A DNA stretch of 26,854 nucleotides from a virus (IMGVR_UViG_2737471839_000017:1-26854); one strand, 5' to 3'; counted from the stretch's first letter, positions 11,377-24,766 are shown. The notes: a model not told the origin generated them from the sequence alone. Numbers and translations: made by a program.

Positions 11377-11583
11377 TTACTGACCAAGCAGCGTTTTACC
11401 GCTGGTATTAGCGGTTGATGTGTCGCCCTGAGAACCGGTAAGCAGCGTAGAACTACGACCAGCAGCAGCGCGACGGCGACGTGTTTCTTCGTCGCGGGCA
11501 TCAACAACGGCGGCATCCTGCTCCTGTGGTGCTGCCTGAACTTCTGGTGTTGCAGGCACTGATGGTGAGCTACCCATGCACAT
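11377..11583 (-). CDS. Small acidic Ala-rich protein (68 aa), first gene of the head operon
   Basis: ORF with GGAG RBS; the overlapping 11364-11603 frame is judged less likely. Confidence 0.3.
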   Translation of the reverse strand: MCMGSSPSVPATPEVQAAPQEQDAAVVDARDEETRRRRAAAGRSSTLLTGSQGDTSTANTSGKTLLGQ

Positions 11584-11651
11584 ATCAATGACTCCGTACG
11601 CAATTAAATTATTACCAATTTAACCACATATGATTTATTTATCGTAGATAG

Positions 11652-11688
11652 TTGACATTTAACGCACGAATTATTACCTTTCAGGTAA
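11652..11688 (+). promoter_or_regulatory. Candidate promoter (TTGACA at 11652-11657) with overlapping operator palindrome TTACCTTTCAGGTAA (11674-11688)
   Basis: Perfect -35 hexamer; weak -10 (TACCTT); operator-family site lies over the -10/+1 region. Confidence 0.3.
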
Positions 11689-12010
11689 CTAAAGAGTTCA
11701 TTCCGGTTACTAACCTGACTGGCTTGTCGTTAAATTGAACAGGTGGAGTGAGCTTTTATTTTGAGCAGTACGGCGTATGGCACATGCGCCGATAGCGGTC
11801 TGGATACGTTTAAGGGGCACCCTCCCTTGCTCGGGCAAACGAACCAGGTAGCCGGAATGTGCAAGTCGAGCGGTTTTATTCCGCGCACGGGGATTCACCA
11901 TCCCGGCGATTCGGTGTGACGCCTCGGAAGAGACGAGGGTGCAACGATGAGAGCATTTATGGAGCCGCGACAAAGTGTGGCGCCTTAACAGGCTAAGTGC
12001 TCTCAGCGTT

Positions 12011-12087
12011 GTGGCATTAGCTCAGTTGGACAGAGCAACCGCCTTCTAAGCGGTTGGTCGCAGGTTCGAATCCTGCATGCCACGCCA
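12011..12087 (+). tRNA. tRNA-Arg (anticodon UCU), 77 nt including CCA
   Basis: Hand-folded cloverleaf: acceptor GTGGCAT/ATGCCAC, D stem GCTC/GAGC, anticodon stem ACCGC/GCGGT with loop CTTCTAA, T stem GCAGG/CCTGC with TTCGAAT loop, CCA end. Confidence 0.85.
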
Positions 12088-12130
12088 GAATCACGCCTAA
12101 GGACCGTGATGCCAGAAGTTCCAGGGGCTT

Positions 12131-12173
12131 GGCGGTGATGGTTTCCCTTGAAGGACTATCACCGCCCTTTTTA
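12131..12173 (+). terminator. Intrinsic terminator downstream of the tRNA
   Basis: 9-bp stem GGCGGTGAT / ATCACCGCC with an 18-nt loop, followed by CTTTTT. Confidence 0.55.
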
Positions 12174-12250
12174 CAGCAGGACGCCATTGCGATGGCTTCA
12201 TGCTGTAAACCAGTACAGCCACGGAAGGCATAACTCATTGCTTCCAGTTC

Positions 12251-12274
12251 GCCCGGTTCGCCGGGCATTTTTTT
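12251..12274 (+). terminator. Second intrinsic terminator/attenuator immediately upstream of the 12286 ORF
   Basis: GCCCGG-ttcg-CCGGGC hairpin followed by ATTTTTTT; the T-run abuts the RBS AAGGTGAG. Confidence 0.5.
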
Positions 12275-12285
12275 AAGGTGAGATT

Positions 12286-12657
12286 ATGAACGACAAGCAA
12301 ATCGAAAAAGAAATCGTTGAGAAAGGCAAAACGGCACCGCGCGTTACGCCAGACCATATCGAAGGCATTATTGCTCAGGAGGCATATTTCACAGCAGAAG
12401 ATGGTGCCTTTGGCAAAGCCATAAAAGCGAAACATACTGGCGGAGAGGTAAACTACCAGCCGCACGAATCACTTTCTCTGCTGACGTTCTGCGTCCTGGT
12501 GCTGCGCAACGGCTTCACCGTCACCGGAGAGAGCGCCTGTGCAAGCCCGGAAAACTTTGATGCAGAAATTGGTCGGAAGATTGCCCGGCAGAATGCTGTA
12601 AACAAAATCTGGATGCTCGAAGGTTACTTGCTGAAGCAGAAGCTAAGCGAGCAATAA
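12286..12657 (+). CDS. Hypothetical moron protein (123 aa)
   Basis: Strong RBS AAGGTGAG 4 nt before the ATG; followed by a terminator; opposite strand to the flanking late genes. Confidence 0.6.
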   Translation: MNDKQIEKEIVEKGKTAPRVTPDHIEGIIAQEAYFTAEDGAFGKAIKAKHTGGEVNYQPHESLSLLTFCVLVLRNGFTVTGESACASPENFDAEIGRKIARQNAVNKIWMLEGYLLKQKLSEQ

Positions 12658-12677
12658 CACCGTGACATGTCACAAAC

Positions 12678-12704
12678 AGCCAGCCGATGAGCTGGCTTTG
12701 TTTT
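12678..12704. terminator. Bidirectional intrinsic terminator between the moron ORF and the terminase large subunit
   Basis: 7-bp stem AGCCAGC / GCTGGCT flanked by AAACAAA on one side and TTTGTTTT on the other. Confidence 0.5.
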
Positions 12705-12747
12705 ATCCTCACCAGAGGATATCTCCGTCATTATCCCCGCTAACGGA

Positions 12748-14223
12748 TTAAGCATAGGGATCGTAATCTGTAATGGCCTTGCCTTGCTGGTTCTGCTGCC
12801 CAGGAATTCGCAGACGCTTCGACACAGGGAAAGCAAACGTCAGCAGTAGCGCATCGCCTTTACCCGGCGAACGCCCAAGACGCTCTTTGATATCTTCCTT
12901 CGGTTCGATAACGATTTTACCGTCCACACGAACTTTGTACTCTGCCGCCGACAGGTCGTCTGCAGTTTCCTGGTCATCCAGCATGCCGCCCAGCCTCAGC
13001 CATGTCTTACATGAGTTGAACATCTCCCCACGCTTGTTAAGCATCTGCGGGTCAGTGGACGCACCGCCGAACGGAACAAGTTGCCATGTACGTCCCCAGC
13101 CATCACCGATTGACTTCAGCCCGGTTCCGTAACCGAAGTCGATGAATACTGCGTCAGCCTGGTACTGGTCTTCAAAGTCAGCGATACGCTTCGCCATAAT
13201 CAGATCGTCGGTGGTCTTGTTACCAGTCCACAGCACCTTACTGTGCAGCCCCTGCCGCAGGTATATCACCGCGTCATCAACGCCTGAATATGCCGGGTCA
13301 ACACCGATTATCACCGGAGCATGCGCCACCTGCGCAGCGGTCACCACCCGTTTCATTGCCTCATCAGTAAGACCGGTAGGGATAAACTGCAATTCAGATG
13401 CATCAGGGAATATGCCGCGCACACGGATTTTAACGAAGTCGCTGTCTTCCCCGTAGTCATCAACCCATTTCTGCAACTGCTGTTTGTTAGTGCCTTCCAC
13501 CGTCCGGCTGTCAATCTGCGCAGTTTTCCAGCGGTGTTTATATTTGCGGAAACATTCGCGAAAACGCCCGGTGTTACGTGTAGGGTTTCCGAACGCCACC
13601 CAGATAATCTCAGTGTCTTCGTCCGTAAGCGCACCCTCAGCAACTTCCCACACCAGATCCGCAATGTTCGACGCTTCATCGAATACCACGATGATGCGTT
13701 TGCGCTCGTTGTGTAGTCCGGCGAATGCCTCAGTGTTGTGCTCAGACCAGGGTATTGCGTCAGCCCGCCACCGCTTGTCGTGCCCAGGGTCATTGCTGTA
13801 CATCGCGGTAGCGGTACAGGTAAACCAGTCTTTCGTGATAGCAAGGTTCGACCACTTGATAATTTCCGGCCAGGTCTTCGTTCGTAGCTGGTTGTCGGTG
13901 TTGGCGGTCACCACGACCTTACAATCCTCGCAAGTGGACATGCCCCAGTTGATCAGCATTGAGATGAATGCGGATTTACCAATACCGTGACCAGAAGCGC
14001 GTGCCAGCATAAGCGGCTGATAGCGCGTCTCTGGATTCTGCAGGTGATCACGTATCTCTCGGAACGCATCAGCCTGCCACTGACGTGGACCGGTGGCATG
14101 TGCCAGTTCAGTCCCCTCTTCCCCCCACGGGAACGCATAGAGGGCATAGCCAAGCGGATCGTGAGTGAACCCTGCAATATCCTCGATCAACTGCTCTTCA
14201 GGAGATAACGCTGTATCTGTCAC
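12748..14223 (-). CDS. Terminase large subunit (491 aa)
   Basis: Walker A-like ARASGHGIGKS; C-terminal nuclease-type acidic motifs (VIIGVDPAYSG, FIDFGYG); GTG start overlapping the small-subunit stop (GTGA). Confidence 0.85.
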   Translation of the reverse strand: MTDTALSPEEQLIEDIAGFTHDPLGYALYAFPWGEEGTELAHATGPRQWQADAFREIRDHLQNPETRYQPLMLARASGHGIGKSAFISMLINWGMSTCEDCKVVVTANTDNQLRTKTWPEIIKWSNLAITKDWFTCTATAMYSNDPGHDKRWRADAIPWSEHNTEAFAGLHNERKRIIVVFDEASNIADLVWEVAEGALTDEDTEIIWVAFGNPTRNTGRFRECFRKYKHRWKTAQIDSRTVEGTNKQQLQKWVDDYGEDSDFVKIRVRGIFPDASELQFIPTGLTDEAMKRVVTAAQVAHAPVIIGVDPAYSGVDDAVIYLRQGLHSKVLWTGNKTTDDLIMAKRIADFEDQYQADAVFIDFGYGTGLKSIGDGWGRTWQLVPFGGASTDPQMLNKRGEMFNSCKTWLRLGGMLDDQETADDLSAAEYKVRVDGKIVIEPKEDIKERLGRSPGKGDALLLTFAFPVSKRLRIPGQQNQQGKAITDYDPYA

Positions 14224-14816
14224 TGATTACCATCCTGACGTTCTTTGAGTCGCTTCCTGGCTGCTGCTATGCGATCAGCAATTGTCACATTCACATTAAC
14301 ATCCAGACGTTCTTTGAACGCGTTGACATCAACATGCTTACCAATCAGCTCAAGGTTCTTCACCTTGTCAGGCCATTTAATTTTTTTGAGGATTGTCTCT
14401 ATCGAATCCTCGTTCATGTTCATGATGGTCGACGACAGATCAAAGCCACTAAGCGTAGTGCGCCAGATTTTCGGCCACTCGCGGATTGGCTTAAGGCTCC
14501 CATCGTCGTTGAGGATATCAATCACGTCCATCTGGTCGATCTCCACCAGGCGCATGAGAACGTAATCAGCACTGACGCGCATTCGTTTGTTGCGCTCCTC
14601 CATCAACTCGGCAATCCGTTTTTGAATGCGTTCATCGCGCATCATGACACTGGCTTTAACTGCCGCTGTATTTGGGGAAAATCCTGCGTTAATCGCTGCC
14701 TGAGTCTGGTTTTCAGGCGTTTTGATGTATGACTGGCAATAAGCCTCCTGCATTGCTGTTAGTGGCTTAAATTGCGTTGATTTGCGTTTATAGGTTTTAG
14801 GTTCAGCAGGCATCAT
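14220..14816 (-). CDS. Terminase small subunit (start probably ATG 14816 or 14813; listed ORF extends to 14894 through a terminator hairpin)
   Basis: Immediately upstream of and coupled to the large subunit; N-terminal region 'AMQEAYCQSYIKTPENQTQAAINAGFSPNTAAVKASVMM' matches the small-terminase pattern from memory. Confidence 0.65.
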   Translation of the reverse strand: MMPAEPKTYKRKSTQFKPLTAMQEAYCQSYIKTPENQTQAAINAGFSPNTAAVKASVMMRDERIQKRIAELMEERNKRMRVSADYVLMRLVEIDQMDVIDILNDDGSLKPIREWPKIWRTTLSGFDLSSTIMNMNEDSIETILKKIKWPDKVKNLELIGKHVDVNAFKERLDVNVNVTIADRIAAARKRLKERQDGNQ

Positions 14817-14856
14817 AACCACCGTGGTAATAGTTACCGTTGTGGTAATAGTACCA

Positions 14857-14885
14857 TGCAAAATAAAGCCGCCATAGTTGGCGGC
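14857..14885 (-). terminator. Intrinsic terminator upstream of the terminase genes (tR'-like candidate)
   Basis: On the minus strand GCCGCC-aactat-GGCGGC followed by TTTATTTTG. Confidence 0.5.
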
Positions 14886-14934
14886 AGTATTCAAAACCCA
14901 TCAAATTCATCATGCATAATCTACTCGTGACATG

Positions 14935-15273
14935 TCACACTATTAATTTCGTTTCATGCCAGCCTTTAGTCACCCAGCATTGCGAGTCACCATTACACGG
15001 GCATGAATTAACTGGAACTCTCTCGCCGCACTTACCGCAACGTTTTCCACTGATCGATTTTATACGCCCGTGCACGCGTGCATCATCCTGGCGGATCAGT
15101 AACGCAATATACTCACCAAATTCGTAAGGCGCACGCCCTGGGCGACGCGTGGCACAGTTACGCTCCAGCATTTCAATTTCCTGAGCATCAAGCACAATCT
15201 CCAGCTTACGCACACCAGATGCAGCTTGTCTGGCTCTCTGAGCGGCTTTGCGTTCTGCTGCGGATTTAGCCAT
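14935..15273 (-). CDS. Cys-rich small protein, late-gene regulator (Q-like antiterminator) candidate; start ATG 15273 with RBS GGAGAGAAGG (alternative 15288)
   Basis: C-terminal CGKCG...CPC cluster suggests a zinc-binding domain; last gene before a terminator and the terminase genes. Function is inferred from position. Confidence 0.4.
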   Translation of the reverse strand: MAKSAAERKAAQRARQAASGVRKLEIVLDAQEIEMLERNCATRRPGRAPYEFGEYIALLIRQDDARVHGRIKSISGKRCGKCGERVPVNSCPCNGDSQCWVTKGWHETKLIV

Positions 15274-15503
15274 CAACCTTCTCTCCATGCCTGGTTTCTG
15301 GTTTTAAGTCCATTGCGCTTGGCATTTCTCTGAATCCGTTTCAGTTCTTCCCTGGACTGCTCTGGAGTTATTTCTCCTCTCATAACTCGTTCAACAAGAC
15401 TCCTTCTAACTTCCATACTGTCAGCGATAAGACCTTGTTCTTCTAGCTTCTCGATATTCACGCGCTTATCAAGGCGAGCATCCCAACTTGAGCGTCTCAT
15501 CAT
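15273..15503 (-). CDS. Hypothetical small basic protein (76 aa)
   Basis: Strong RBS AGGAGG 5-6 nt upstream; ATGA coupling downstream. Confidence 0.5.
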   Translation of the reverse strand: MMRRSSWDARLDKRVNIEKLEEQGLIADSMEVRRSLVERVMRGEITPEQSREELKRIQRNAKRNGLKTRNQAWREG

Positions 15504-16059
15504 TCATCCTCCTGCTGTAATGCTGCAACCATGGCTTTGGTTTCAGCGATTAGATTTCGTGGTAACTGGCTACCCGCTTTTAGCATGCCTATCCCAAACA
15601 CCAGCCAGCGCTGCAGCATGTCCGCATAGCCATCCGGAGTTACCGGAGAGTTGCCGGGTTCTTTATGTGCAAGCGAGGCTCACCATCTTTTGGCTCAGGC
15701 CACTGGCGCTCCATGTTGATCTTCAATTTATCTTCCATAGCAACGGTAATTTCAGCATCGCTGATGCCAGCACGGCGCTGTGCATCCCACAACAGGAACT
15801 GCATATCAGCCCACTCGCTAAGATCGTCTGGTTCGGCTGCGGCTTCCAGAGCCTCTTTTGAGAGGTGTTTCAGTGGACCAATGGGGCCAACGCAGCCAAA
15901 TGTGGAGTCAGACCATTTGGCATGCTCGTGGCGAATCTGTTCGCGTTCCAGTAATGCCAGTGCAATTCGTGCCAGTTCCATTTGTTCGCCACGAGTAAGC
16001 CCGTTATCAAGCGGATTTTTAATGAATAATTCGATACGTTCTTTGGTTATAGTGCTCAT
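15500..16059 (-). pseudogene. DUF550-like gene apparently split by a +1 frameshift: frame A 15640-16059 (139 aa) continues in another frame 15500-15679 (59 codons)
   Basis: Second frame is open from 15679 to a TGA that overlaps the next gene's ATG; RBS AAGGAG before the ATG at 16059; the shift must lie within 15640-15679. DUF550 identity is recalled, not searched. Confidence 0.4.
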
Positions 16060-16060
16060 A

Positions 16061-16696
16061 TCACTCTCCTTTGATGCGAATGCCAGCGTCAGACATCATA
16101 TGCAGATACTCAACTGCATCCTGAACCCATTGACCGCCAATCCCGTAATAGCGATGCGTAATGATGTCGATAGTTACTAACGGGTCTTGTTCGATTAACT
16201 TCCGCAGAAACTCTTCCAGGTCACCAGTGCAGTGCTTGATGACAGGAGTTTTCCCGGGATGGCGAACAACAAGAAACTGATTTCCGACTTCACGGACTTC
16301 GTTGCTTTCCAGTTCTGCAATGCGCTTCTCTGCGGCTTCCAGCTCAACACGCAGCTTCCCTACCGTTAACGCAATATCCTCGTTCTCCTGGTCGCGGGAT
16401 TTGATGTATTGCTGGTTCCTTTCCAGCTCATCCAGCAGCGCCAAGACGGTAGCCGGATTGGCTGCGGCGATGAATTCAGCATTGGCCTGCTGTTCCATTT
16501 GGAAATCTTCATAGAAACCGCTTTCAGGATGCGCTCCTTCAATTCTGCAAATGGGAAGATATCCAACAACTTCACGATGAATTAGCGCATCACCAGCATC
16601 AAATCTCTCCTCTCCATATTCGAGCGTCCACACGCCACACGTTGCTTTTTCTGCTTTTTCACGCAGTGCCTGATAGTCAATTGTCATTCTCGCCAT
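16061..16696 (-). CDS. Ead/Ea22-like family protein candidate (start 16696 or 16687)
   Basis: N-terminal 'TIDYQALREKAEKATCGVWT' and central coiled-coil region resemble Ea22-like prophage proteins from memory. Confidence 0.5.
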   Translation of the reverse strand: MARMTIDYQALREKAEKATCGVWTLEYGEERFDAGDALIHREVVGYLPICRIEGAHPESGFYEDFQMEQQANAEFIAAANPATVLALLDELERNQQYIKSRDQENEDIALTVGKLRVELEAAEKRIAELESNEVREVGNQFLVVRHPGKTPVIKHCTGDLEEFLRKLIEQDPLVTIDIITHRYYGIGGQWVQDAVEYLHMMSDAGIRIKGE

Positions 16697-17328
16697 CCTT
16701 CACAGTTGTAATCACTACAGCCTTTAAAATCATATGGGTTGTACTGCCAGGTGATTTTTCCGCAATGCGGACAATTCCAACGCACCTTCCCGCTTCGCGA
16801 CTTCTTTCTTCTGTTCTGCTCTTTCAACCAGTCAGGCATGACCAAACCTGCGCCCTGAACCATTGTTCTGCGGTTAAAGTTATTGATATTGAACGTCCGG
16901 CGCTTTGCTGAATCAGCAATGGAAAATGGCAACCAAACTATTCCTGGTTCGTTTTTGTTGGCGACGCTAAAGATGGTCGCTTTACTGAAGTCATCTGTTG
17001 GCAATCCACCGTGTTGAAGCCAGTAAACATCGTTGCCGTTCCAGCTACCTTTTTTGTAGGCCACATACGCAGTGCAATCTGGCTCAATCAGGTTTTCTGT
17101 AGGGATGTACTGGCAATCAACGTGCCACACTGCCATTGCATCCACGCTATCAGCGCAAACAGGCTGATCGATATCTCGCCCACAATTCCAGGCTTTTTGG
17201 GCTTCTTCCAGCGTGTAAACATGAGCGCGATCGATATCAGAACTGTAACCATTGCCGTTATGGCAATGGAATGAAGCGTTATTGCCCACAGTTTCACGCG
17301 AGCACATCATGTAAAAACGGTTAGTCAC
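16684..17328 (-). CDS. Cys-rich hypothetical protein with C-terminal zinc-ribbon-like motif (214 aa; GTG start with RBS AGGAGG)
   Basis: C-terminal 'WNCPHCGKITWQYNPYDFKGCSDYNCEGW'; no recognised family. Confidence 0.5.
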   Translation of the reverse strand: MTNRFYMMCSRETVGNNASFHCHNGNGYSSDIDRAHVYTLEEAQKAWNCGRDIDQPVCADSVDAMAVWHVDCQYIPTENLIEPDCTAYVAYKKGSWNGNDVYWLQHGGLPTDDFSKATIFSVANKNEPGIVWLPFSIADSAKRRTFNINNFNRRTMVQGAGLVMPDWLKEQNRRKKSRSGKVRWNCPHCGKITWQYNPYDFKGCSDYNCEGWRE

Positions 17329-17951
17329 TGGTTGCCTCCTTTTCGAAGCTGGGCGGCGATACCTTCGAGAACGCCATCAGAGAATGAGCGGTCAAAATCG
17401 CCTTCCGGCGCATTAGCCATAAACTCAGTAGAGGTAAGAATCATCCGGGCAATATCCGCGGCGTTCTTCGCAGTATCATCAATAAAACCAGCTTCCCAGG
17501 CAGCCAGCATTCTGTTCGCCACAAAATAAGCTCCTTCCTTGCGTGCTTTAGTCCTCACTTCAGCCAGAAAAGCATCGGTTGCTGGCGTTTCGCTGTGGTG
17601 TAGGGCATCGTTGATAATCATTGCAGCAACTCCGGCCTGCCCTGCATCCGTGACCGACACATGCTCAAGAGTTACAGCCATTGCGTGTTTCAGCCCAGCA
17701 TTCTCCGCAGCCAGCGCCGAAAACTTCTCGTGTGCCAACTTAACAGCCGAATCAGCCTGTTTAATTGACTCAATGGCTCTCTGGTGGTCTTCGGCCAGCG
17801 CATTAGCACGCACCAGTTGCACTTCCAGTTGCGTTGCCAAATCGCTGATCAGCTTTGCCACACTGCGCATATCAACGGCACCACATTCTGCTTTCAGTTC
17901 CGAAGCCATCTCATGCCCGGCGGAAACTAACCCTTTGATATTACTTTCCAT
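17325..17951 (-). CDS. Coiled-coil accessory protein, Ea22-like candidate (208 aa)
   Basis: RBS GAGGG 7 nt upstream; Ala-rich helical N-terminal half. Confidence 0.5.
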   Translation of the reverse strand: MESNIKGLVSAGHEMASELKAECGAVDMRSVAKLISDLATQLEVQLVRANALAEDHQRAIESIKQADSAVKLAHEKFSALAAENAGLKHAMAVTLEHVSVTDAGQAGVAAMIINDALHHSETPATDAFLAEVRTKARKEGAYFVANRMLAAWEAGFIDDTAKNAADIARMILTSTEFMANAPEGDFDRSFSDGVLEGIAAQLRKGGNQ

Positions 17952-18012
17952 CTTTACCCTCGCTTATCCACATAACTTATTGATTACATTGATAACTAAA
18001 AAGATCGTCGAT

Positions 18013-18357
18013 TCAGAACTCTTCGATGTTCCAGCCACCACCTGCTTTCTTTGGTTTAACCGTTACCCCGATGATTCGGAACGGATACTGATCTGCGGCG
18101 ACTTTGGTTTTCACCCTGGCGTCGTCGGTCCAGAAACCTTTCACTTCGTGCAGTTCCATCTCTCCGGTGGCGAGCATCACAGCGAAATCTGGCGTATAGA
18201 ACGTGTTGTCAGCTAACCGCAGCTTGATACCCTCGAATCGATACCAGGCGATTTCCCCTGCACGTTTACGCAGCTCAAGGTGCTGGCAATACGCAGATTC
18301 TGTTTTGTTCATCTGGCCTGTTTTGAGTCGACCAAGAGCCTGTATCTGTTTTCTCAT
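18013..18357 (-). CDS. DUF1064-like phage protein (114 aa)
   Basis: First gene after a promoter/operator region; family recalled, not searched. Confidence 0.5.
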   Translation of the reverse strand: MRKQIQALGRLKTGQMNKTESAYCQHLELRKRAGEIAWYRFEGIKLRLADNTFYTPDFAVMLATGEMELHEVKGFWTDDARVKTKVAADQYPFRIIGVTVKPKKAGGGWNIEEF

Positions 18358-18374
18358 GATTTACCCTTGAGGTA

Positions 18375-18403
18375 ATTAAAAACCACATAAGACACGAAAT
18401 CAA
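18375..18403 (-). promoter_or_regulatory. Sigma70-like promoter for the accessory operon (-35 TTGATT, 17-nt spacer, -10 TTTAAT on the minus strand), with operator sites at 18361-18375 and 18424-18438
   Basis: Hexamers read on the minus strand; the perfect palindrome TTACCCTTGAGGTAA overlaps the predicted start site and contains the RBS. Confidence 0.45.
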
Positions 18404-18474
18404 TAGAGTTTAGAATGTTTTGTTACCCAACAGGTAACTATCGAGGCGTAAAAAAATGCGCTATCGCGCTGGTA

Positions 18475-19275
18475 TTACTTGATAAATCCTGCCGCCTTTC
18501 CTCGCCTGTATTCCTCCATCAGCCACTGCGCCGGTGTTATTCCCCCAAGGGTGGCGGCGTTAGGCATGCACCCGAAACTTCGCCCTGGTGGATGGTAAAC
18601 GTCTCTCCCTGTGTCCGGAGGTGTACTCATGGGTTCTGGCTTTGCCTGTATGCTGATCACCGGATCGGGTATCTGCTGCCCGGAATCCACCTTTTTCGCC
18701 CAATCATCGAGCAGCCTGCGTGCGTGTTTCTCAACCTCAATCTCGCTAAGCTGGCGCTGATACATTGCACGGCGGGTATCACATACGACCCAGTACATAA
18801 CCGGATGTCGCCACGGGAATCTTTCGGGACCACCAGGATATAAACTTTTTTCCTTGCTGTACCGGTGAAACTCCGCCATCACATCGTCAATGGTGACGCC
18901 AAGAACCATCTTGCTGTCTTTGCACCACTTGATAAATTGCCCTGGAGACGGCCAGAACGGAGATTCACTGGCGCGGGCGTGGCGCATACCAGCAGAAACC
19001 TGTTCACGGGTTCGGATCCCCCCTTCGGCAAACGCAGCAATCCACTGCTGTTTTGCAGCAACTTCCTGCTCTGGCGTCTTCAGGTTGGTTACCACTGCCG
19101 CCGGAAACAGTTGTTTCAGCTGTTTAAAAAGGGCATCAACAAGCCTCTCTGCTGACATGTTCACCACATTGTCATTGTTGACGTACTGATGCTCATAACC
19201 TGACATGCGAGAAAGGGCTTCTCCGTCACGGTTTTGTATCGCGGTAAAAACGTTGTTCACAAGAAATCCTCCCAT
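18475..19275 (-). CDS. Replication protein P-like (helicase loader), 266 aa
   Basis: Segment '...FPAAVVTNLKTPEQEVAAKQQWIAAFAEGGIRTREQVSAGMRHARASESPFWPSPGQFIKWC' parallels lambda P '...FPASLANRDQNEVNEIRRQWVLAFRENGITTMEQVNAGMRVARRQNRPFLPSPGQFVAWC' from memory. Confidence 0.75.
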   Translation of the reverse strand: MGGFLVNNVFTAIQNRDGEALSRMSGYEHQYVNNDNVVNMSAERLVDALFKQLKQLFPAAVVTNLKTPEQEVAAKQQWIAAFAEGGIRTREQVSAGMRHARASESPFWPSPGQFIKWCKDSKMVLGVTIDDVMAEFHRYSKEKSLYPGGPERFPWRHPVMYWVVCDTRRAMYQRQLSEIEVEKHARRLLDDWAKKVDSGQQIPDPVISIQAKPEPMSTPPDTGRDVYHPPGRSFGCMPNAATLGGITPAQWLMEEYRRGKAAGFIK

Positions 19276-20156
19276 GCTTCAGGGCTGTTCCAGTGCGGAA
19301 CGTTGTTATCAGGTAATGTTGATTGCTTCTGTCTGCTAATCTGCAGCCGCCTTGCCAGCTTCTGCTCCCACTGTGCCTGATGGTATGCCTTACCCTCAGC
19401 CATCCAGTAAATTCTGAACTCTGCAAGTTCCTGTGCCGTTGGCAGACTGTCCAGGTAGATCCCCTGCAATGAGCTTTTCCGAAGAAAGTCATCTGATGGC
19501 TGCCATTGTTCATGCATGACAAATTTGCCTAATTGCCCTGGCCCACCTGGAGGAACAAAGTTATTCATCACGGCGTTGTTTGCGCCGGGGTCATGGGGCA
19601 CGGAATCCCCGATTTTTGTCCTGCTCTCCCTCTCTTGGTTAAATGACTGGTTATATGACTGGTTCTGGATCCCGTTTTTGGGATCATTCAACATCCCGTT
19701 TTTGGGATCATTCAATATCCCGTTTTTGGGATCATTCAATATCCCGTTTTTGGGATCATTCAATATCCCGTTTTTGGGTATATTCCCGTTTTCGGGAACA
19801 TTACCGTTTTCGGGAACATTACCGTTTTCGGGTTCATTACCGTTTTCGGGTTCATTACCCCCTTCCCGTTTGCCTTTAATGTTCCCTTTTTTGGTTATAT
19901 TAAGAGAGAAAACCCGTACTCTTTTCGTCGCCCCCTTTCTCTCTCCGGTATCTGAAATAAGCCCCATTTTCATGAGCGATATAAGCCCGGCCTGCACGGT
20001 TTTTTTATTCAGGCAAGTGTCTTTAACGAGGCGTTCTATGCTGGGGTAGCAGAGGTTATATTCATCGGCTCTGTCAGCCATCGAGAGCAGTATGAGCTTT
20101 AATGATGAGCTACCTGGATCTGTCTCCCAGGCCCAATCTGTTGCATGTCTGCTCAT
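19257..20156 (-). CDS. Replication initiator O-like protein (299 aa) carrying the iteron-encoded peptide repeats
   Basis: Directly upstream of and overlapping the P-like gene; internal DNA iterons; RBS GGAG 9 nt upstream. Confidence 0.7.
   Translation of the reverse strand: MSRHATDWAWETDPGSSSLKLILLSMADRADEYNLCYPSIERLVKDTCLNKKTVQAGLISLMKMGLISDTGERKGATKRVRVFSLNITKKGNIKGKREGGNEPENGNEPENGNVPENGNVPENGNIPKNGILNDPKNGILNDPKNGILNDPKNGMLNDPKNGIQNQSYNQSFNQERESRTKIGDSVPHDPGANNAVMNNFVPPGGPGQLGKFVMHEQWQPSDDFLRKSSLQGIYLDSLPTAQELAEFRIYWMAEGKAYHQAQWEQKLARRLQISRQKQSTLPDNNVPHWNSPEAWEDFL
19670..19910. repeat. Origin of replication candidate: about 4.5 copies of a 24-bp iteron (ATCCCGTTTTTGGGATCATTCAAY), 4 copies of an 18-bp iteron (CCGTTTTCGGGWWCATTA), then an AT-rich stretch
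   Basis: Tandem direct repeats read in sequence; each unit contains a short inverted repeat (ATCCC/GGGAT or CCCG/CGGG); located inside the O-like gene as in lambda ori. Confidence 0.65.
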
Positions 20157-20171
20157 GATTAATCTCCGCTA

Positions 20172-20372
20172 TCAGCTTGAGTGTTGTGGGGAGGAATTAA
20201 TCATGATCTGCTTAATCTCTGCCCTGATGCGACGGTTTGATTCCATGGTGCACTCAACACAGTGTCCGTTGTAAACCCAGCGTTCACTGTCATGTCCGTG
20301 CTTACATGGTTTTCCGGTGTAGTAGCGTTTAAGTCCGCGCTTTGCGGCATCAATACGTGTAATGATTTCCAT
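20172..20372 (-). CDS. Small Cys/His-rich protein (about 66 aa; start at 20372, listed ORF extends to 20435)
   Basis: Motif CKHGH...CVEC; sits between the cro-side terminator and the O-like gene. Confidence 0.4.
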   Translation of the reverse strand: MEIITRIDAAKRGLKRYYTGKPCKHGHDSERWVYNGHCVECTMESNRRIRAEIKQIMINSSPQHSS

Positions 20373-20470
20373 GGTAAGCCCTGTTATTGGTATTGGGATT
20401 ACGGTTATTTTGTGCTGACACAAAAAAAAGATCAACCATATTTGGTTTTTTATTACCTTTGAGGTACGAA

Positions 20471-20501
20471 TAGATATGAAAAGACCGCCGGATGGCGGTC
20501 T
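20471..20501 (-). terminator. tR1-like terminator candidate downstream of the cro-like gene
   Basis: 8-bp stem AGACCGCC / GGCGGTCT with a 4-nt loop; moderately T-rich tail on the minus strand. Confidence 0.35.
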
Positions 20502-20522
20502 ACAGAGGGTTGTGGCTGGATA

Positions 20523-20753
20523 TCATGAGTAGAAGAAGTATGCCAGTTCTGCTTTTGAGCGCAGCCATTGTCTTGTTTTACAGGCTTTAAAAAGCCCATC
20601 CATCAATACCTTACCTGGCATTTTGCGCTTACCTGTTAAGTGAGTCTGGATATAGTGACTCGTCGTTCCGGCTTCCTGTGCGAAGGCTTCACGCTCATCC
20701 GGAGTAAGTGCAAGCCAGTGCTTTTTGAAATCGAAATGTCCGTTATCGCTCAT
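20523..20753 (-). CDS. Cro/CII-like small HTH regulator (76 aa)
   Basis: Divergent from the repressor candidate across an operator-rich intergenic region; HTH-like segment 'FAQEAGTTSHYIQTHLTGKR'. Confidence 0.5.
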   Translation of the reverse strand: MSDNGHFDFKKHWLALTPDEREAFAQEAGTTSHYIQTHLTGKRKMPGKVLMDGLFKACKTRQWLRSKAELAYFFYS

Positions 20754-20784
20754 AGCTATTGCCTGATATTTATTTCAGATAATA

Positions 20785-20891
20785 AATATTCACCTATAAG
20801 GTAACAAAAATCAAGGATAGTTACCCATGAGGTGCATTTACCTGTTGGGTAATATTGCTTTAAATTGAATCATCTTCTGATTCAGATATGA
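20785..20891. promoter_or_regulatory. Divergent promoter/operator region (OR-like): minus-strand promoter -35 TTGATT / -10 GAATAT (20785-20813), plus-strand -10 candidates TAATAT (20849-20854) or TATGAG (20886-20891), operator sites at 20820-20834 (imperfect) and 20837-20851 (perfect)
   Basis: Hexamers and palindromes read in sequence; also a GGTAAC...GTTACC inverted pair at 20799-20824. Confidence 0.45.
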
Positions 20892-20907
20892 GGCGATTTT
20901 CCAGAAA

Positions 20908-21492
20908 ATGAAAAGTATCCAGGACGTCCGCAGGCAAAATCTCAACGACTTGATCGACCGTGAATTCAATGGTGTTCAGACGCGGATGGCAGAAAAACTT
21001 GGAACTCAGGCAAATCTGGTAAACCGCTGGGCTCTTGGCAAGAAGGTTATCGGCGACCAGGTTGCGCGAAAAATTGAAGCTGTCGCCAATAAACCACGTA
21101 ACTGGCTTGATATCGATCGCTCGCTTTCTCAGGAGGGTTTTCAGCCTGTCGGACCAAGCGACATTGGTCAGCTGGCGGCTCACAACCTGGAACGCTGGAT
21201 GAGCGAAAGCCGCGACCTTTCAACACAGGGAAAACTTCACCGCGCATCCGGCGTCGCCCAGGTGACAATCAGCCGCCTGTTAAACAATGAGGTCAGCGTT
21301 TCCATTTCCACCCTGGAGAATGTTGCATCTGCATTCGGGCGTCACGGATATGAACTACTGATTCACCCGCACGACCCTGCAACTATCAACTATGACCGCT
21401 CGCGCTACGCATTGTTACCTGAAACCGAGAAAGCAAAGATCGAAAGTTACATTGAATTTGTCATCAACCAGAACGAAAAAAACAAACAATAA
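20908..21492 (+). CDS. Tandem-HTH (XRE-type) DNA-binding protein, maintenance-repressor candidate (194 aa)
   Basis: Two HTH-like segments ('QTRMAEKLGTQANLVNRW' and 'LHRASGVAQVTISRLLN'); no Shine-Dalgarno before the ATG; followed by a terminator; cI-equivalent position. Confidence 0.55.
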   Translation: MKSIQDVRRQNLNDLIDREFNGVQTRMAEKLGTQANLVNRWALGKKVIGDQVARKIEAVANKPRNWLDIDRSLSQEGFQPVGPSDIGQLAAHNLERWMSESRDLSTQGKLHRASGVAQVTISRLLNNEVSVSISTLENVASAFGRHGYELLIHPHDPATINYDRSRYALLPETEKAKIESYIEFVINQNEKNKQ

Positions 21493-21514
21493 AATCATAC
21501 TTTTCAGTAAGTAA

Positions 21515-21538
21515 GCCGCCTTCTGGCGGCTTTTTTAT
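21515..21538 (+). terminator. Intrinsic terminator after the repressor candidate
   Basis: GCCGCC-ttct-GGCGGC hairpin followed by TTTTTTATT. Confidence 0.6.
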
Positions 21539-21549
21539 TGCCTATACTA

Positions 21550-21626
21550 TTACCTAATGGGTAATTTTTTTAACTCATATCTATTGACATCAAACCAAAT
21601 ACGCATAATTATTACCTAAACGGTAA
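21550..21626 (+). promoter_or_regulatory. PL-like early-left promoter (-35 TTGACA 21584-21589, -10 TAATTA/AATTAT near 21606-21612) flanked by operator sites at 21550-21564 and 21612-21626
   Basis: Consensus -35, 16-17 nt spacer, AT-rich -10; two perfect TTACC-N5-GGTAA palindromes. Confidence 0.5.
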
Positions 21627-22100: not shown

Positions 22101-22303
22101 AACCAACACTCCTCTCATTGCTGCGAGGTGGAAAACACAGCATCCGAGATATGGCAAAGATTCTTGGTATCTCAAGATCGAAGGTTTCTTGGTTCATCGC
22201 TGAGCTTGAACGTCGCAAATGGGTAGAGGTAACCAGGAGCGCAATATATTTCCACGATGGAACCCGTTCCAACAAGCAGAACGAATACAAGGTTAAGTTA
22301 TGA
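22097..22303 (+). CDS. Small putative HTH DNA-binding protein (68 aa)
   Basis: RBS AGAGGGA; segment 'IRDMAKILGISRSKVSWFIAELE'. Confidence 0.5.
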   Translation: MKPTLLSLLRGGKHSIRDMAKILGISRSKVSWFIAELERRKWVEVTRSAIYFHDGTRSNKQNEYKVKL

Positions 22304-24357: not shown

Positions 24358-24470
24358 GTGCGCTGCTATGGCACTGGAGCAAATGGTCAGGATGGTACTT
24401 ATTCCTGGCCTCTGTTTCAGCATGGCTTTATCTGCTGGCATTAATTTTCAGAGAGGGTTGGATTAAGTGA
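24354..24470 (+). CDS. Small hydrophobic Trp-rich peptide (38 aa, MSALLWHWSKWSGWYLFLASVSAWLYLLALIFREGWIK), putative single-pass membrane peptide
   Basis: ATG overlaps the alpA stop (ATGA); its stop overlaps the GTG start of the next gene (GTGA); own translation, below the ORF-track size cut-off. Confidence 0.3.
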   Translation: MSALLWHWSKWSGWYLFLASVSAWLYLLALIFREGWIK

Positions 24471-24766
24471 GAAAGTTAAGCCGACTTGAAAAATATCACA
24501 TGAACAAGGTTTCAATGCGCAGCCATTCAAAGGTTGTTGCCGTTACTCCTGCGGCGATAGAGATCGAAAAACGCGCGATTGAAAGAGAGAAAAAAGGGCA
24601 GTTCCGCATTGCCGCCCACCTTTGGCTTCAGTGTATGGATGTTGCTTCTGGTGATATTGAGCGTGCAAGGATCGCGGTTCGCAGGGACCAATGTATCACA
24701 AAAGGTAACGGCCTTCGCCGTGGCGACTATAGCGGTATAGGATGTTGCGGGGTGGTTTATGACTAA
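24467..24766 (+). CDS. PerC-like transcriptional activator candidate (99 aa, GTG start)
   Basis: Segment 'AIEREKKGQFRIAAHLWLQCMD...RARIAVRRDQCI' matches the PerC/Pch pattern from memory; RBS GAGAGGG. Confidence 0.5.
   Translation: MRKLSRLEKYHMNKVSMRSHSKVVAVTPAAIEIEKRAIEREKKGQFRIAAHLWLQCMDVASGDIERARIAVRRDQCITKGNGLRRGDYSGIGCCGVVYD

What the first reader, a model, noticed from the sequence alone, without database searches (positions are those of the whole stretch)
11674..21626. A 15-bp palindrome, TTACC-N5-GGTAA, recurs at six perfect and two imperfect intergenic sites
Perfect copies lie at 11674-11688, 18361-18375, 18424-18438, 20837-20851, 21550-21564 and 21612-21626; imperfect copies at 20453-20467 (GGTAC) and 20820-20834 (GGTGC). 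All are intergenic and overlap predicted -10/+1 regions. A random 27-kb sequence would be expected to contain about 0.03 such sites. Besides the OR-like and OL-like positions, sites sit in front of the accessory (nin-like) operon, the replication genes and the tRNA moron. That suggests a single repressor controlling at least five transcription units, which is broader than the lambda OL/OR paradigm.
Basis: seen in the sequence. Interest (0 to 1): 0.7.

Follow-up and report, generated by a model that had tools for sequence, protein, structure and literature searches.

The report
Repressor operators of an ε15-like prophage
The repeated 15-bp palindrome is real and is almost certainly the binding site of the prophage's master repressor, placed in front of nearly every operon, but the same sites are already annotated in the related Salmonella phage ε15, so this is a rediscovery, not a new system.

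Summary
TTACC-N5-GGTAA occurs 7 times perfectly (about 0.01-0.03 expected) and at least 4 times imperfectly. All 11 sites lie in the 7.8% of the window that is non-coding.

The window is an ε15/φV10-type (Uetakevirus) E. coli prophage. ORF 20908-21492 is a full-length homologue of the Salmonella phage SPC32H repressor Rep (PDB 5D50), a tetramer that an antirepressor inactivates. The GenBank record of phage ε15 already labels seven copies of this motif as repressor-binding sites, including sites ahead of late genes.

I found the motif at the same syntenic positions in ten other genomes from Escherichia, Salmonella, Enterobacter, Serratia, Dickeya and Yersinia. Flanking DNA diverges and Rep identity falls to 41%, yet the presumed DNA-reading residues of Rep never change.

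So the one-repressor, many-operon reading is supported, but it is already known. No binding was tested here. Three things may be less explored:
- operator specificity is unchanged across the whole family;
- operator pairs are spaced exactly 62 bp apart in the seven named phage genomes;
- the equally conserved Cro-like protein could bind the same sites.

The parts
20908..21492 (+). rep: master repressor (194 aa) with an N-terminal HTH DNA-binding domain, a middle HTH-like dimerisation domain and a C-terminal tetramerisation/Ant-binding domain
   Evidence: Full-length match to SPC32H Rep, PDB 5D50 (E 1.4e-41), and 5D4Z. Pfam HTH_3 at residues 106-147 and no Peptidase_S24 hit. Domain roles are taken from PMC9986798. 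N36, R40 and W41 are invariant in 26 homologues.
20523..20753 (-). cro-like gene (76 aa), divergent from rep; a possible second binder of the same operators
   Evidence: phrog_35 'transcriptional repressor', E 5.6e-13. Homologue of ε15 gp39; 54-83% identical across 7 genomes.
21612..21626 (.). PL-proximal operator (perfect), starting at the last base of the -10 hexamer and covering the likely +1
   Evidence: Invariant in 7 genomes. Equivalent to the ε15 annotated repressor site 32554-32570.
21550..21564 (.). PL-distal operator (perfect), 62 bp centre-to-centre from the proximal one and followed by an invariant T-run
   Evidence: The 62-bp spacing is identical in the 7 named phage genomes.
21584..21612 (+). 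PL-like early promoter, TTGACA-17-AATTAT, driving 21646 onward (gp37-like, RecE/RecT, AlpA, PerC, MT-A70)
   Evidence: Best sigma-70 match in the region, 10 of 12. The -35 block CTATTGAC is invariant. Downstream gene families.
20838..20852 (.). O1 of the rep/cro divergent region (perfect), nearest rep
20821..20835 (.). O2 (2 mismatches, TTACC..GGTGC), 17 bp from O1; a perfect site at this position in ε15 and SPC32H
20790..20804 (.). O3 (1 mismatch, TCACC), lying in the spacer and -10 of the cro-ward promoter
20786..20814 (-). PR-like promoter, TTGATT-17-GAATAT, towards the cro-like gene
   Evidence: Read from the sequence. TTGATTTTT is invariant in 7 genomes. The tool's alternative is TTGTTA-17-TATTAT.
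20453..20467 (.). Degenerate operator (GGTAC) just after the cro terminator and upstream of a conserved TTGATC-17-CAAAAT candidate promoter for gp40 and the replication genes
   Evidence: The same 1-mismatch form is kept in φV10, ZX5 and Tyrion, while ε15 and SPC32H are more degenerate here.
18361..18375 (.). Pnin-proximal operator (perfect). It abuts the -10 TTTAAT, and its GGG/AAGG half doubles as the Shine-Dalgarno sequence for the ATG at 18357.
   Evidence: It corresponds to the ε15 perfect site at 35969.
18423..18437 (.). Pnin-distal operator (perfect), 62 bp from the proximal one, just after the terminator of the replication operon
   Evidence: It corresponds to the ε15 annotated repressor site 35906-35922.
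18375..18403 (-). Promoter of the accessory (nin-like) operon, TTGATT-17-TTTAAT
   Evidence: TATTGA and T.TGG.TTT.AAT are invariant in 7 genomes.
   Evidence: Equivalent to the ε15 annotated repressor site 12-27.
14816..14830 (.). terS-proximal operator (1 mismatch), 18 bp from the distal one, containing the GGTGG Shine-Dalgarno sequence of the small-terminase gene (ATG at 14813)
11674..11688 (.). Single operator between the gp3/portal late operon (- strand, ATG at 11583) and the tRNA-Arg/gp49_66 unit (+ strand). An invariant TTGACA lies at 11652-11657 on the + strand, 17 bp from the half-site TACCTT.
   Evidence: Equivalent to the ε15 annotated repressor site 2931-2947.

Best explanation
The palindrome RTTACC-N5-GGTAAY is the operator of the prophage's master repressor Rep (20908-21492).

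Shown here:
- The window is an ε15/φV10-type prophage.
- Rep is a full-length homologue of SPC32H Rep.
- The motif marks the same nine or so promoter regions in every family member examined.

Inferred mechanism:
- Two N-terminal HTH domains read the two 5-bp half-sites. Their centres are 10 bp apart, one helical turn.
- A Rep tetramer carries two such DNA-binding pairs. It can therefore hold two operators at once. These are either adjacent (17-18 bp apart: O1/O2 and the terS pair) or in phase at 62 bp (PL and Pnin).
- Proximal operators abut or overlap the -10/+1, and at Pnin and terS also the ribosome-binding site, so bound Rep blocks RNA polymerase.
- One protein thus directly silences the early-left, early-right (cro), replication, accessory and late (terS, gp3/portal) units. 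In complete relatives it also covers the ant/tailspike, lysis and int units. There is no need for a regulatory cascade.
- Induction does not go through RecA-stimulated self-cleavage, because Rep has no S24 peptidase domain. It goes through a small LexA-controlled antirepressor, Ant, which breaks up the tetramer.
- Ant is encoded outside this window. It is present, with a perfect SOS box, in the 97%-identical phage ZX5.
- The Cro-like protein probably competes at the rep/cro operators during lytic growth.
For: Statistics: 7 perfect sites against 0.01 expected. The motif is the top dyad of all possible ones. All 11 sites lie in the 7.8% non-coding DNA.

Identity of the element: 97% identical to φV10, ZX5, TL-2011b and phiv142-3.

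Identity of the protein: PDB 5D50 Rep over residues 1-190, E 1.4e-41.

Prior annotation: ε15 record AY150271.2 carries seven 'protein_bind, repressor, lysogeny' features. Each coincides with a TTACC-N5-GGTAA site, and they lie ahead of terS, gp3, the tailspike, PL (three sites) and the nin-like operon.

Phylogenetic footprints: the half-sites and the -35/-10 blocks are invariant, while the 5-bp spacers and the flanks vary.

Breadth: the same motif sits at syntenic positions in Salmonella, Enterobacter, Serratia, Dickeya and Yersinia relatives. Each genome has 9-18 hits at up to 1 mismatch, against 0.2-0.7 expected.

Protein constraint: the DNA-binding domain is the best conserved Rep domain (53% against 33-34% for the middle domain in ε15/SPC32H). 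N36, R40 and W41 are invariant.

Literature:
- SPC32H Rep binds palindromic DNA as a tetramer, and Ant breaks tetramer formation (PMC9638917).
- Rep has a DBD-MDD-tetramerisation architecture (PMC9986798).
- Overexpressing the ZX5 repressor abolishes free phage and cuts holin and endolysin transcripts by 99.97-99.99% (PMC9782041).

Ant and SOS box: the ZX5 Ant homologue matches PDB 5D50 chain E at E 4e-47, and the SOS box CTGTATATTTATACAG lies 22 bp upstream of its start.
Against: - No binding experiment was done or could be read here. The three primary papers (Kropinski 2007; Kim & Ryu 2013; Kim et al. 2016) are not in the library. Which operators were footprinted is therefore not verified.
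- The Cro-like protein is even more conserved than Rep, so conservation does not single out Rep.
- The motif never varies across the family, so no protein/operator covariation test was possible.
- The late-gene sites lack a recognisable -35, and their promoter status is inferred.
- The distal operators and 20453 do not overlap core promoter elements.
- The drop in late transcripts in ZX5 could be indirect.
- The ant gene and its SOS box are not in the window.
Confidence: 0.85

Rival explanations
1. The palindrome is mainly the target of the 76-aa Cro-like protein (20523-20753), acting as a lytic-phase regulator of all these promoters. Rep would recognise something else, or only the rep/cro subset.
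For: The Cro-like protein has an HTH-like segment (AGTTSHYIQTH) and hits phrog_35 'transcriptional repressor'. It is 76-83% identical between the window and ε15, SPC32H, Tyrion and BUCT554. That is more conserved than Rep and matches the invariance of the motif.
Against: ε15's depositors assign the sites to the repressor. Rep's DNA-binding domain also keeps invariant residues. Sites in front of late, lysis and int genes make sense for prophage silencing but little sense for a Cro. Overexpressing the repressor alone shuts down the late transcripts. By analogy with lambda, shared binding at the rep/cro operators is expected and does not contradict the main explanation.
Confidence: 0.07
2. The motif is a positive promoter element: the binding site of a phage activator, or part of a special -10/discriminator recognised during lytic growth. 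On this reading it is not a repressor operator.
For: Many copies directly abut a -10-like hexamer (AATTAT|TACC, TACTAT|TACC, TTTAAT|TACC). The late-gene copies lack a good -35, as activator-dependent promoters do. The window encodes candidate regulators: a PerC-like protein at 24467-24766 and a phrog_536 'transcriptional regulator' at 14935-15288.
Against: The same element occurs at strong sigma-70 early promoters with a consensus TTGACA. It also occurs inside the PR spacer and at distal positions 62 bp upstream. One activator serving both immediate-early and late promoters is implausible. A dyad overlapping +1 and the ribosome-binding site is the classic repressor position. ε15's annotation and the SPC32H work point to a repressor.
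Confidence: 0.04
3. The motif serves a non-transcriptional or host-factor role, such as a host DNA-binding protein site, a recombination or packaging signal, or a methylation target.
For: The phage encodes an MT-A70 methyltransferase. ε15's record annotates IHF sites next to some copies.
Against: The motif travels with the phage family through six host genera. It is confined to promoter regions. Its 10-bp half-site spacing fits an HTH dimer. It is too long and too rare to be a methylation target, and too frequent to be a pac site.
Confidence: 0.02

Closest known systems
Salmonella phage ε15 gp38 repressor and its annotated 17-bp operators (GenBank AY150271.2; Kropinski et al. 2007, Virology 369:234. 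The paper was not readable here, so only the GenBank annotation was used.)
   Same: The motif is identical (ATTACC-N5-GGTAAT) and the syntenic positions are the same: terS, gp3, PL and the nin-like operon. The repressor is homologous.
   Different: Rep is only 41-42% identical. ε15 has a third PL operator, which this window lacks. The ε15 record does not annotate the rep/cro trio, the proximal nin site or the lysis-gene site, although perfect copies are there.
Salmonella phage SPC32H Rep-Ant switch (PDB 5D50/5D4Z; Kim & Ryu 2013, J Virol; Kim et al. 2016, PNAS. These are cited through PMC9638917 and PMC9986798.)
   Same: Rep is a full-length homologue. The operator motif and layout are the same in the SPC32H genome. 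An Ant homologue and an SOS box are present in the near-identical phage ZX5.
   Different: The ant gene and its SOS box lie outside this window. Tetramer formation and Ant sensitivity of this particular protein are inferred, not tested.
Lambda CI with tripartite OL/OR operators
   Same: rep and cro are divergent with three operators between them. There is a second operator cluster at the leftward early promoter. Operators overlap core promoter elements. Cooperative multi-site binding is likely.
   Different: There is no S24 self-cleavage domain, and induction goes through an antirepressor. Operators also sit at replication, accessory, late, lysis and int promoters, so silencing is direct and does not rely on a missing N/Q cascade.
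Mycobacteriophage L5 gp71 'stoperators' (Brown et al. 1997, EMBO J; from my own knowledge)
   Same: One repressor has many (about 30) sites spread through the genome, so repression is genome-wide.
   Different: L5 sites are asymmetric 13-mers. They lie within transcription units in one orientation and stop elongation. Here the sites are symmetric dyads placed at promoters.
Bacillus plasmid pLS20 Rco (TetDloop tetramer that loops DNA between two operators 75 bp apart; PMC9986798)
   Same: Rco has an N-terminal HTH and a p53-like tetramerisation domain, which is structurally similar to the one in SPC32H Rep. Its paired operator regions are separated by tens of bp.
   Different: Rco recognises direct repeats on a conjugative plasmid and regulates one promoter pair. 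Looping by the ε15-type Rep has not been shown.

Membership tests
ε15/SPC32H-type (Uetakevirus) Rep-operator regulon | Repressor homologous over its full length to SPC32H Rep / ε15 gp38 (N-terminal DBD, middle dimerisation domain, C-terminal tetramerisation/Ant-binding domain) | tested here: met
   PDB 5D50_A matches residues 1-190, E 1.4e-41. It aligns end to end with ε15, SPC32H, Tyrion and BUCT554.
ε15/SPC32H-type (Uetakevirus) Rep-operator regulon | Operators of the form ATTACC-N5-GGTAAT at the positions annotated as repressor sites in ε15 | tested here: met
   All seven annotated ε15 sites are this motif. The window has the syntenic copies at terS, gp3, PL and Pnin.
ε15/SPC32H-type (Uetakevirus) Rep-operator regulon | ε15-like genome backbone (terS-terL-gp3-portal...; rep/cro; DnaT/P-like replication genes; RecE/RecT; P4-type integrase) | tested here: met
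   97% nucleotide identity to φV10, ZX5 and TL-2011b over most of the window. Gene families.
ε15/SPC32H-type (Uetakevirus) Rep-operator regulon | Small LexA-controlled antirepressor Ant next to the tailspike gene | tested here: inconclusive
   That part of the prophage lies outside the window, which starts inside the gp15 homologue. In ZX5 the Ant homologue (E 4e-47 to 5D50_E) and a perfect SOS box are present.
ε15/SPC32H-type (Uetakevirus) Rep-operator regulon | Rep physically binds the palindrome as a tetramer | not testable with these tools
   Known only second-hand for SPC32H (PMC9638917).
Lambda CI / LexA-like self-cleaving repressors | C-terminal S24 peptidase domain with a RecA-stimulated cleavage site | tested here: not met
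   Pfam finds only HTH families and no Peptidase_S24. The C-terminus aligns to the SPC32H middle and tetramerisation domains.
Lambda CI / LexA-like self-cleaving repressors | Operators confined to two clusters (OL, OR) flanking the immunity region | tested here: not met
   There are additional sites at 11674, 14816/14834, 18361/18423 and 20453.
L5-type stoperator system | Asymmetric sites inside transcription units, oriented with transcription | tested here: not met
   The sites are perfect dyads. All are intergenic and lie at or near promoter elements.

The most novel reading that the evidence does not exclude
Because the operator is copied about 10-18 times around the genome, its specificity may be locked. 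Rep proteins have diverged to 41% identity in six genera of Enterobacterales, yet all keep the same TTACC-N5-GGTAA operator and the same N..RW reading residues. ε15-like phages may therefore form one very large homoimmune group, unlike the lambdoid phages with their many immunity types. Diversification would then be shifted to the Rep-Ant interface.

In addition, operator pairs are spaced exactly 62 bp apart in the seven named phage genomes and are flanked by conserved A/T-runs. This would mean that one Rep tetramer clamps both operators and encloses the promoter in a very small loop.
Probability: 0.3. Interest if true: 0.45.

Novelty: already known. Interest (0 to 1): 0.2.

Why it matters
The result gives a concrete regulatory map for a common E. 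coli prophage type. The 90%-identity cluster of this repressor alone holds 618 sequences. One repressor appears to silence early, replication, accessory and late operons directly, with induction through an SOS-controlled antirepressor.

That is useful for annotating φV10-type prophages, whose records lack these sites. It is also useful for engineering φV10-based reporter phages and for predicting cross-immunity among ε15-like phages. As a discovery it adds little, because ε15's record already marks the motif as the repressor site and SPC32H Rep has been studied structurally.

Tried and rejected
1. Primary papers. I tried to read Kropinski 2007 (PMC2698709), Kim & Ryu 2013 (PMC3807360) and Kim 2016 (PMC4983836). 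None is held. A full-text search for the 17-mer consensus I remembered found nothing. I used the GenBank annotation and secondary citations instead.

2. Covariation test. I looked for Rep homologues with a different recognition helix and a correspondingly different palindrome. Two database searches reached 41-50% identity in Serratia, Dickeya, Yersinia, Cronobacter and Raoultella. The helix residues are invariant in all of them. The motif is unchanged in the Serratia, Dickeya and Yersinia relatives whose DNA I fetched. The test is therefore uninformative, although it is evidence of strong constraint.

3. Ant candidate in the window. I asked whether ORF 12286-12657, which lies on the opposite strand near the 11674 site, is the antirepressor. 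It is not. It is a Phage_gp49_66 protein with a weak match to anti-CBASS Acb4. The real Ant homologue lies outside the window.

4. Two DNA-reading domains in one chain. I considered that the two HTH-like domains of Rep might each read one half-site. I rejected this because the second one is the dimerisation domain in the SPC32H structure.

5. Promoter towards the tRNA. A sigma-70 promoter TTGACA-N11-AATTAT on the + strand at 11652 has too short a spacer. The only workable reading is TTGACA-17-TACCTT, which has a weak -10.

6. Rfam. The scan of the window found only the tRNA.

7. SOS boxes in the window. Two CTGT-N8-ACAG matches occur, which is at chance level.
Full report
**1. Observation**

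An exact search finds TTACC-N5-GGTAA seven times in the window: 11674, 14834, 18361, 18423, 20838, 21550 and 21612. Dinucleotide-preserving shuffles give a mean of 0.01.

Allowing mismatches adds four sites:
- 20453 (1 mismatch), as reported;
- 20821 (2 mismatches), reported one base off;
- 14816 and 20790 (1 mismatch each), both unreported.

I counted every possible 5-mer/gap/reverse-complement dyad in the window. This one ranks first, with 7 copies against 0.025 expected. All 11 sites lie in the 2,095 bases (7.8%) that are not coding.

**2. What the window is**

The region is 97% identical to Escherichia phages φV10, ZX5, TL-2011b and phiv142-3, which belong to genus Uetakevirus, the ε15-like podoviruses.

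The window runs from inside the gp15-homologue tail gene to the start codon of the integrase. On the minus strand it holds the head, portal and terminase genes, the accessory ('nin-like') genes and the DnaT/P-like replication genes. The divergent cro-like/rep pair sits at 20523-21492. The early-left operon (RecE/RecT, AlpA, PerC, MT-A70) is on the plus strand. The tailspike, ant, lysis and att regions of the prophage lie outside the window.

**3. The binder**

ORF 20908-21492 matches the repressor Rep of Salmonella phage SPC32H over its whole length (PDB 5D50, E 1.4e-41). It has no S24 peptidase domain.

Papers that cite the SPC32H work give the following picture:
- Rep has an N-terminal DNA-binding domain, a middle dimerisation domain (the second HTH-like fold) and a C-terminal p53-like tetramerisation domain that also binds the antirepressor (PMC9986798).
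- Rep binds palindromic DNA as a tetramer. Each DNA-binding pair is formed across dimers.
- A tetrameric antirepressor, Ant, breaks tetramer formation (PMC9638917).
- From my own memory, not verified here: ant is LexA-controlled (Kim & Ryu 2013).

ZX5 is 97% identical to the window. It encodes an Ant homologue (E 4e-47 to 5D50 chain E) with a perfect SOS box, CTGTATATTTATACAG, 22 bp upstream of its start. In ZX5, overexpressing the repressor abolished free phage and cut holin and endolysin transcripts by 99.97-99.99% (PMC9782041).

**4. The motif is already annotated**

The GenBank record of ε15 (AY150271.2) carries seven 'protein_bind / repressor / lysogeny' features. Every one coincides with a TTACC-N5-GGTAA site. 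They lie ahead of terS, ahead of gp3/portal, in the ant/tailspike gap, three at the PL-equivalent and one ahead of the nin-like operon.

ε15 has 11 perfect copies in all. The unannotated ones include two in the rep/cro gap, one ahead of the lysis genes and the proximal nin site. These seem to have been missed because the depositors probably searched the stricter 17-mer ATTACC-N5-GGTAAT.

So both the observation and the reading 'one repressor, many operons, including late ones' were made for the type phage.

**5. Comparative evidence gathered here**

I located the motif in ε15, SPC32H, Tyrion, BUCT554, φV10 and ZX5. I also located it in prophages that carry more distant Rep homologues, from Serratia, an E. 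coli metagenome contig, Dickeya dianthicola and Yersinia massiliensis.

Each genome has 9-18 hits at up to 1 mismatch, against 0.2-0.7 expected. The perfect copies fall at the same places:
- a pair before terS (18-20 bp apart);
- one before gp3;
- one or more in the ant/tailspike gap;
- one before the lysis genes;
- a conserved 1-mismatch site about 45 bp before int, which in this prophage would lie just past the window end;
- two or three at PL;
- three between rep and cro;
- two before the accessory operon.

Alignments of these intergenic regions show the half-sites and the -35/-10 blocks as invariant islands. The 5-bp spacers and the flanks vary.

Rep itself falls to 41% identity. Its DNA-binding domain is the best conserved part, and N36, R40 and W41 are invariant in all 26 homologues aligned.

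**6. Anatomy and likely mechanism (inferred)**

The half-site centres are 10 bp apart, as expected for an HTH dimer. The individual regions read as follows.

- *PL.* TTGACA-17-AATTAT lies at 21584-21612, and the proximal operator starts at the last base of the -10. A second operator lies exactly 62 bp upstream and is followed by an invariant T-run.
- *Accessory promoter.* The design is the same on the other strand: TTGATT-17-TTTAAT, then a proximal operator that also supplies the Shine-Dalgarno sequence for the ATG at 18357. The distal operator is again 62 bp away.
- *terS.* An invariant extended -10 (TGnTAnTAT) abuts the distal operator. The proximal, degenerate operator contains the GGTGG Shine-Dalgarno sequence.
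- *rep/cro gap.* O3 lies in the spacer of TTGATT-17-GAATAT, which points to cro. O1 and O2 (17 bp apart) lie toward rep.
- *20453.* This site follows the cro terminator and lies upstream of a conserved TTGATC-17-CAAAAT.
- *11674.* This site lies between the gp3/portal operon and the oppositely oriented tRNA-Arg/gp49_66 unit. An invariant TTGACA on the tRNA side stands 17 bp from the half-site TACCTT. It may therefore control either direction or both.

The 62-bp spacing at both PL and Pnin is identical in the seven named phage genomes. More distant relatives use 18, 61, 62 or 74-75 bp. A tetramer with two DNA-binding pairs could hold two operators at once. This is my inference and has not been shown.

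**7. Rivals**

The 76-aa Cro-like protein is 76-83% identical between the window and ε15, SPC32H, Tyrion and BUCT554 (54% to the Serratia homologue). It is more conserved than Rep, so conservation cannot exclude it as a binder. As in lambda, it probably shares the rep/cro operators.

An activator-site reading and a host-factor reading fit the positions poorly. The relevant positions are inside a promoter spacer, over +1 and the ribosome-binding site, and at both strong early and weak late promoters.

**8. Verdict**

However, it re-describes the annotated operator set of the ε15/SPC32H repressor in a φV10-type E. coli prophage. Novelty: already known. Interest is low.

Some less-trodden points remain. 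The operator and reading residues are unchanged across six genera despite deep Rep divergence. That suggests a locked immunity specificity and possible family-wide homoimmunity. The fixed pair geometry is the other open point. Both need experiments.

Noticed in passing
window 12662-12673 and 14927-14938; also L002 2142, 19517, 39612; L005 2145, 19634, 38629; L010 2726, 16073; L011 5909: A second conserved perfect palindrome, GTGACATGTCAC, occurs twice in the window against 0.03 expected at up to 1 mismatch. In 9 of the 11 fetched loci it sits at the 3' ends of operons. It overlaps or follows a stop codon, lies at convergent gene junctions and, in the window and ε15, sits just before rho-independent terminators. 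Examples are after the phrog_536 regulator gene upstream of terS, after terL/gp49_66 and after the tail operon. Its function is unknown. It may be a protein site linked to termination or antitermination.
   Followed up: partly
window 19679-19770: Four tandem 24-bp repeats (TGGGATCATTCAAyATCCCGTTTTT) lie inside the DnaT/HTH_36 replication-initiator gene 19257-20156 (-). They look like origin iterons embedded in the initiator gene, as in lambda O.
   Followed up: no
window 12286-12657 (+), with tRNA-Arg(UCU) at 12011-12087 (+): A Phage_gp49_66 family gene (Pfam E 9e-35) with a weak match to the anti-CBASS protein Acb4 (PDB 9e4w, E 0.006) lies with a tRNA-Arg on the strand opposite the structural genes. 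The 322-nt stretch between the 11674 operator and the tRNA folds unusually well as RNA (z = -3.3).
   Followed up: partly
window 12203-12218: A CTGT-N8-ACAG match (CTGTAAACCAGTACAG) lies between the tRNA terminator and the gp49_66 gene and is conserved in ZX5 (22226-22241). The count is at chance level for the window, so SOS control of this gene is only a possibility.
   Followed up: no
window about 11597-11620 (- strand leader of gp3): The block TGGTTAAATTGGTAATAATTTAAT is invariant in all 7 genomes aligned. It contains a lone GGTAAT half-site flanked by the inverted repeat TTAAATT/AATTTAA. It could be a half-operator, another protein's site or an mRNA element.
   Followed up: no
just beyond window end (>26854); L003 8026-8040, L002 26882-26896, L010 17376-17390: A conserved 1-mismatch copy of the operator (TTACCyTAAAGGTAT or ATACCTTTCGGGTAA) lies about 45 bp upstream of the integrase start in every complete relative. 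The repressor may therefore also control int. In this prophage the site would fall just outside the window.
   Followed up: partly
φV10 record NC_007804.2 41-715; window ORF 14220-14894: The small-terminase gene is annotated in φV10 (and listed here) with a long TTG start that swallows both terS operators. Alignment and the conserved GGTGG-ATG suggest that the ATG at window 14813 is the real start.
   Followed up: partly
L004 34059-34271 (Tyrion gp39): An annotated + strand ORF in Tyrion lies across the PL operator pair and promoter and is probably spurious.
   Followed up: no
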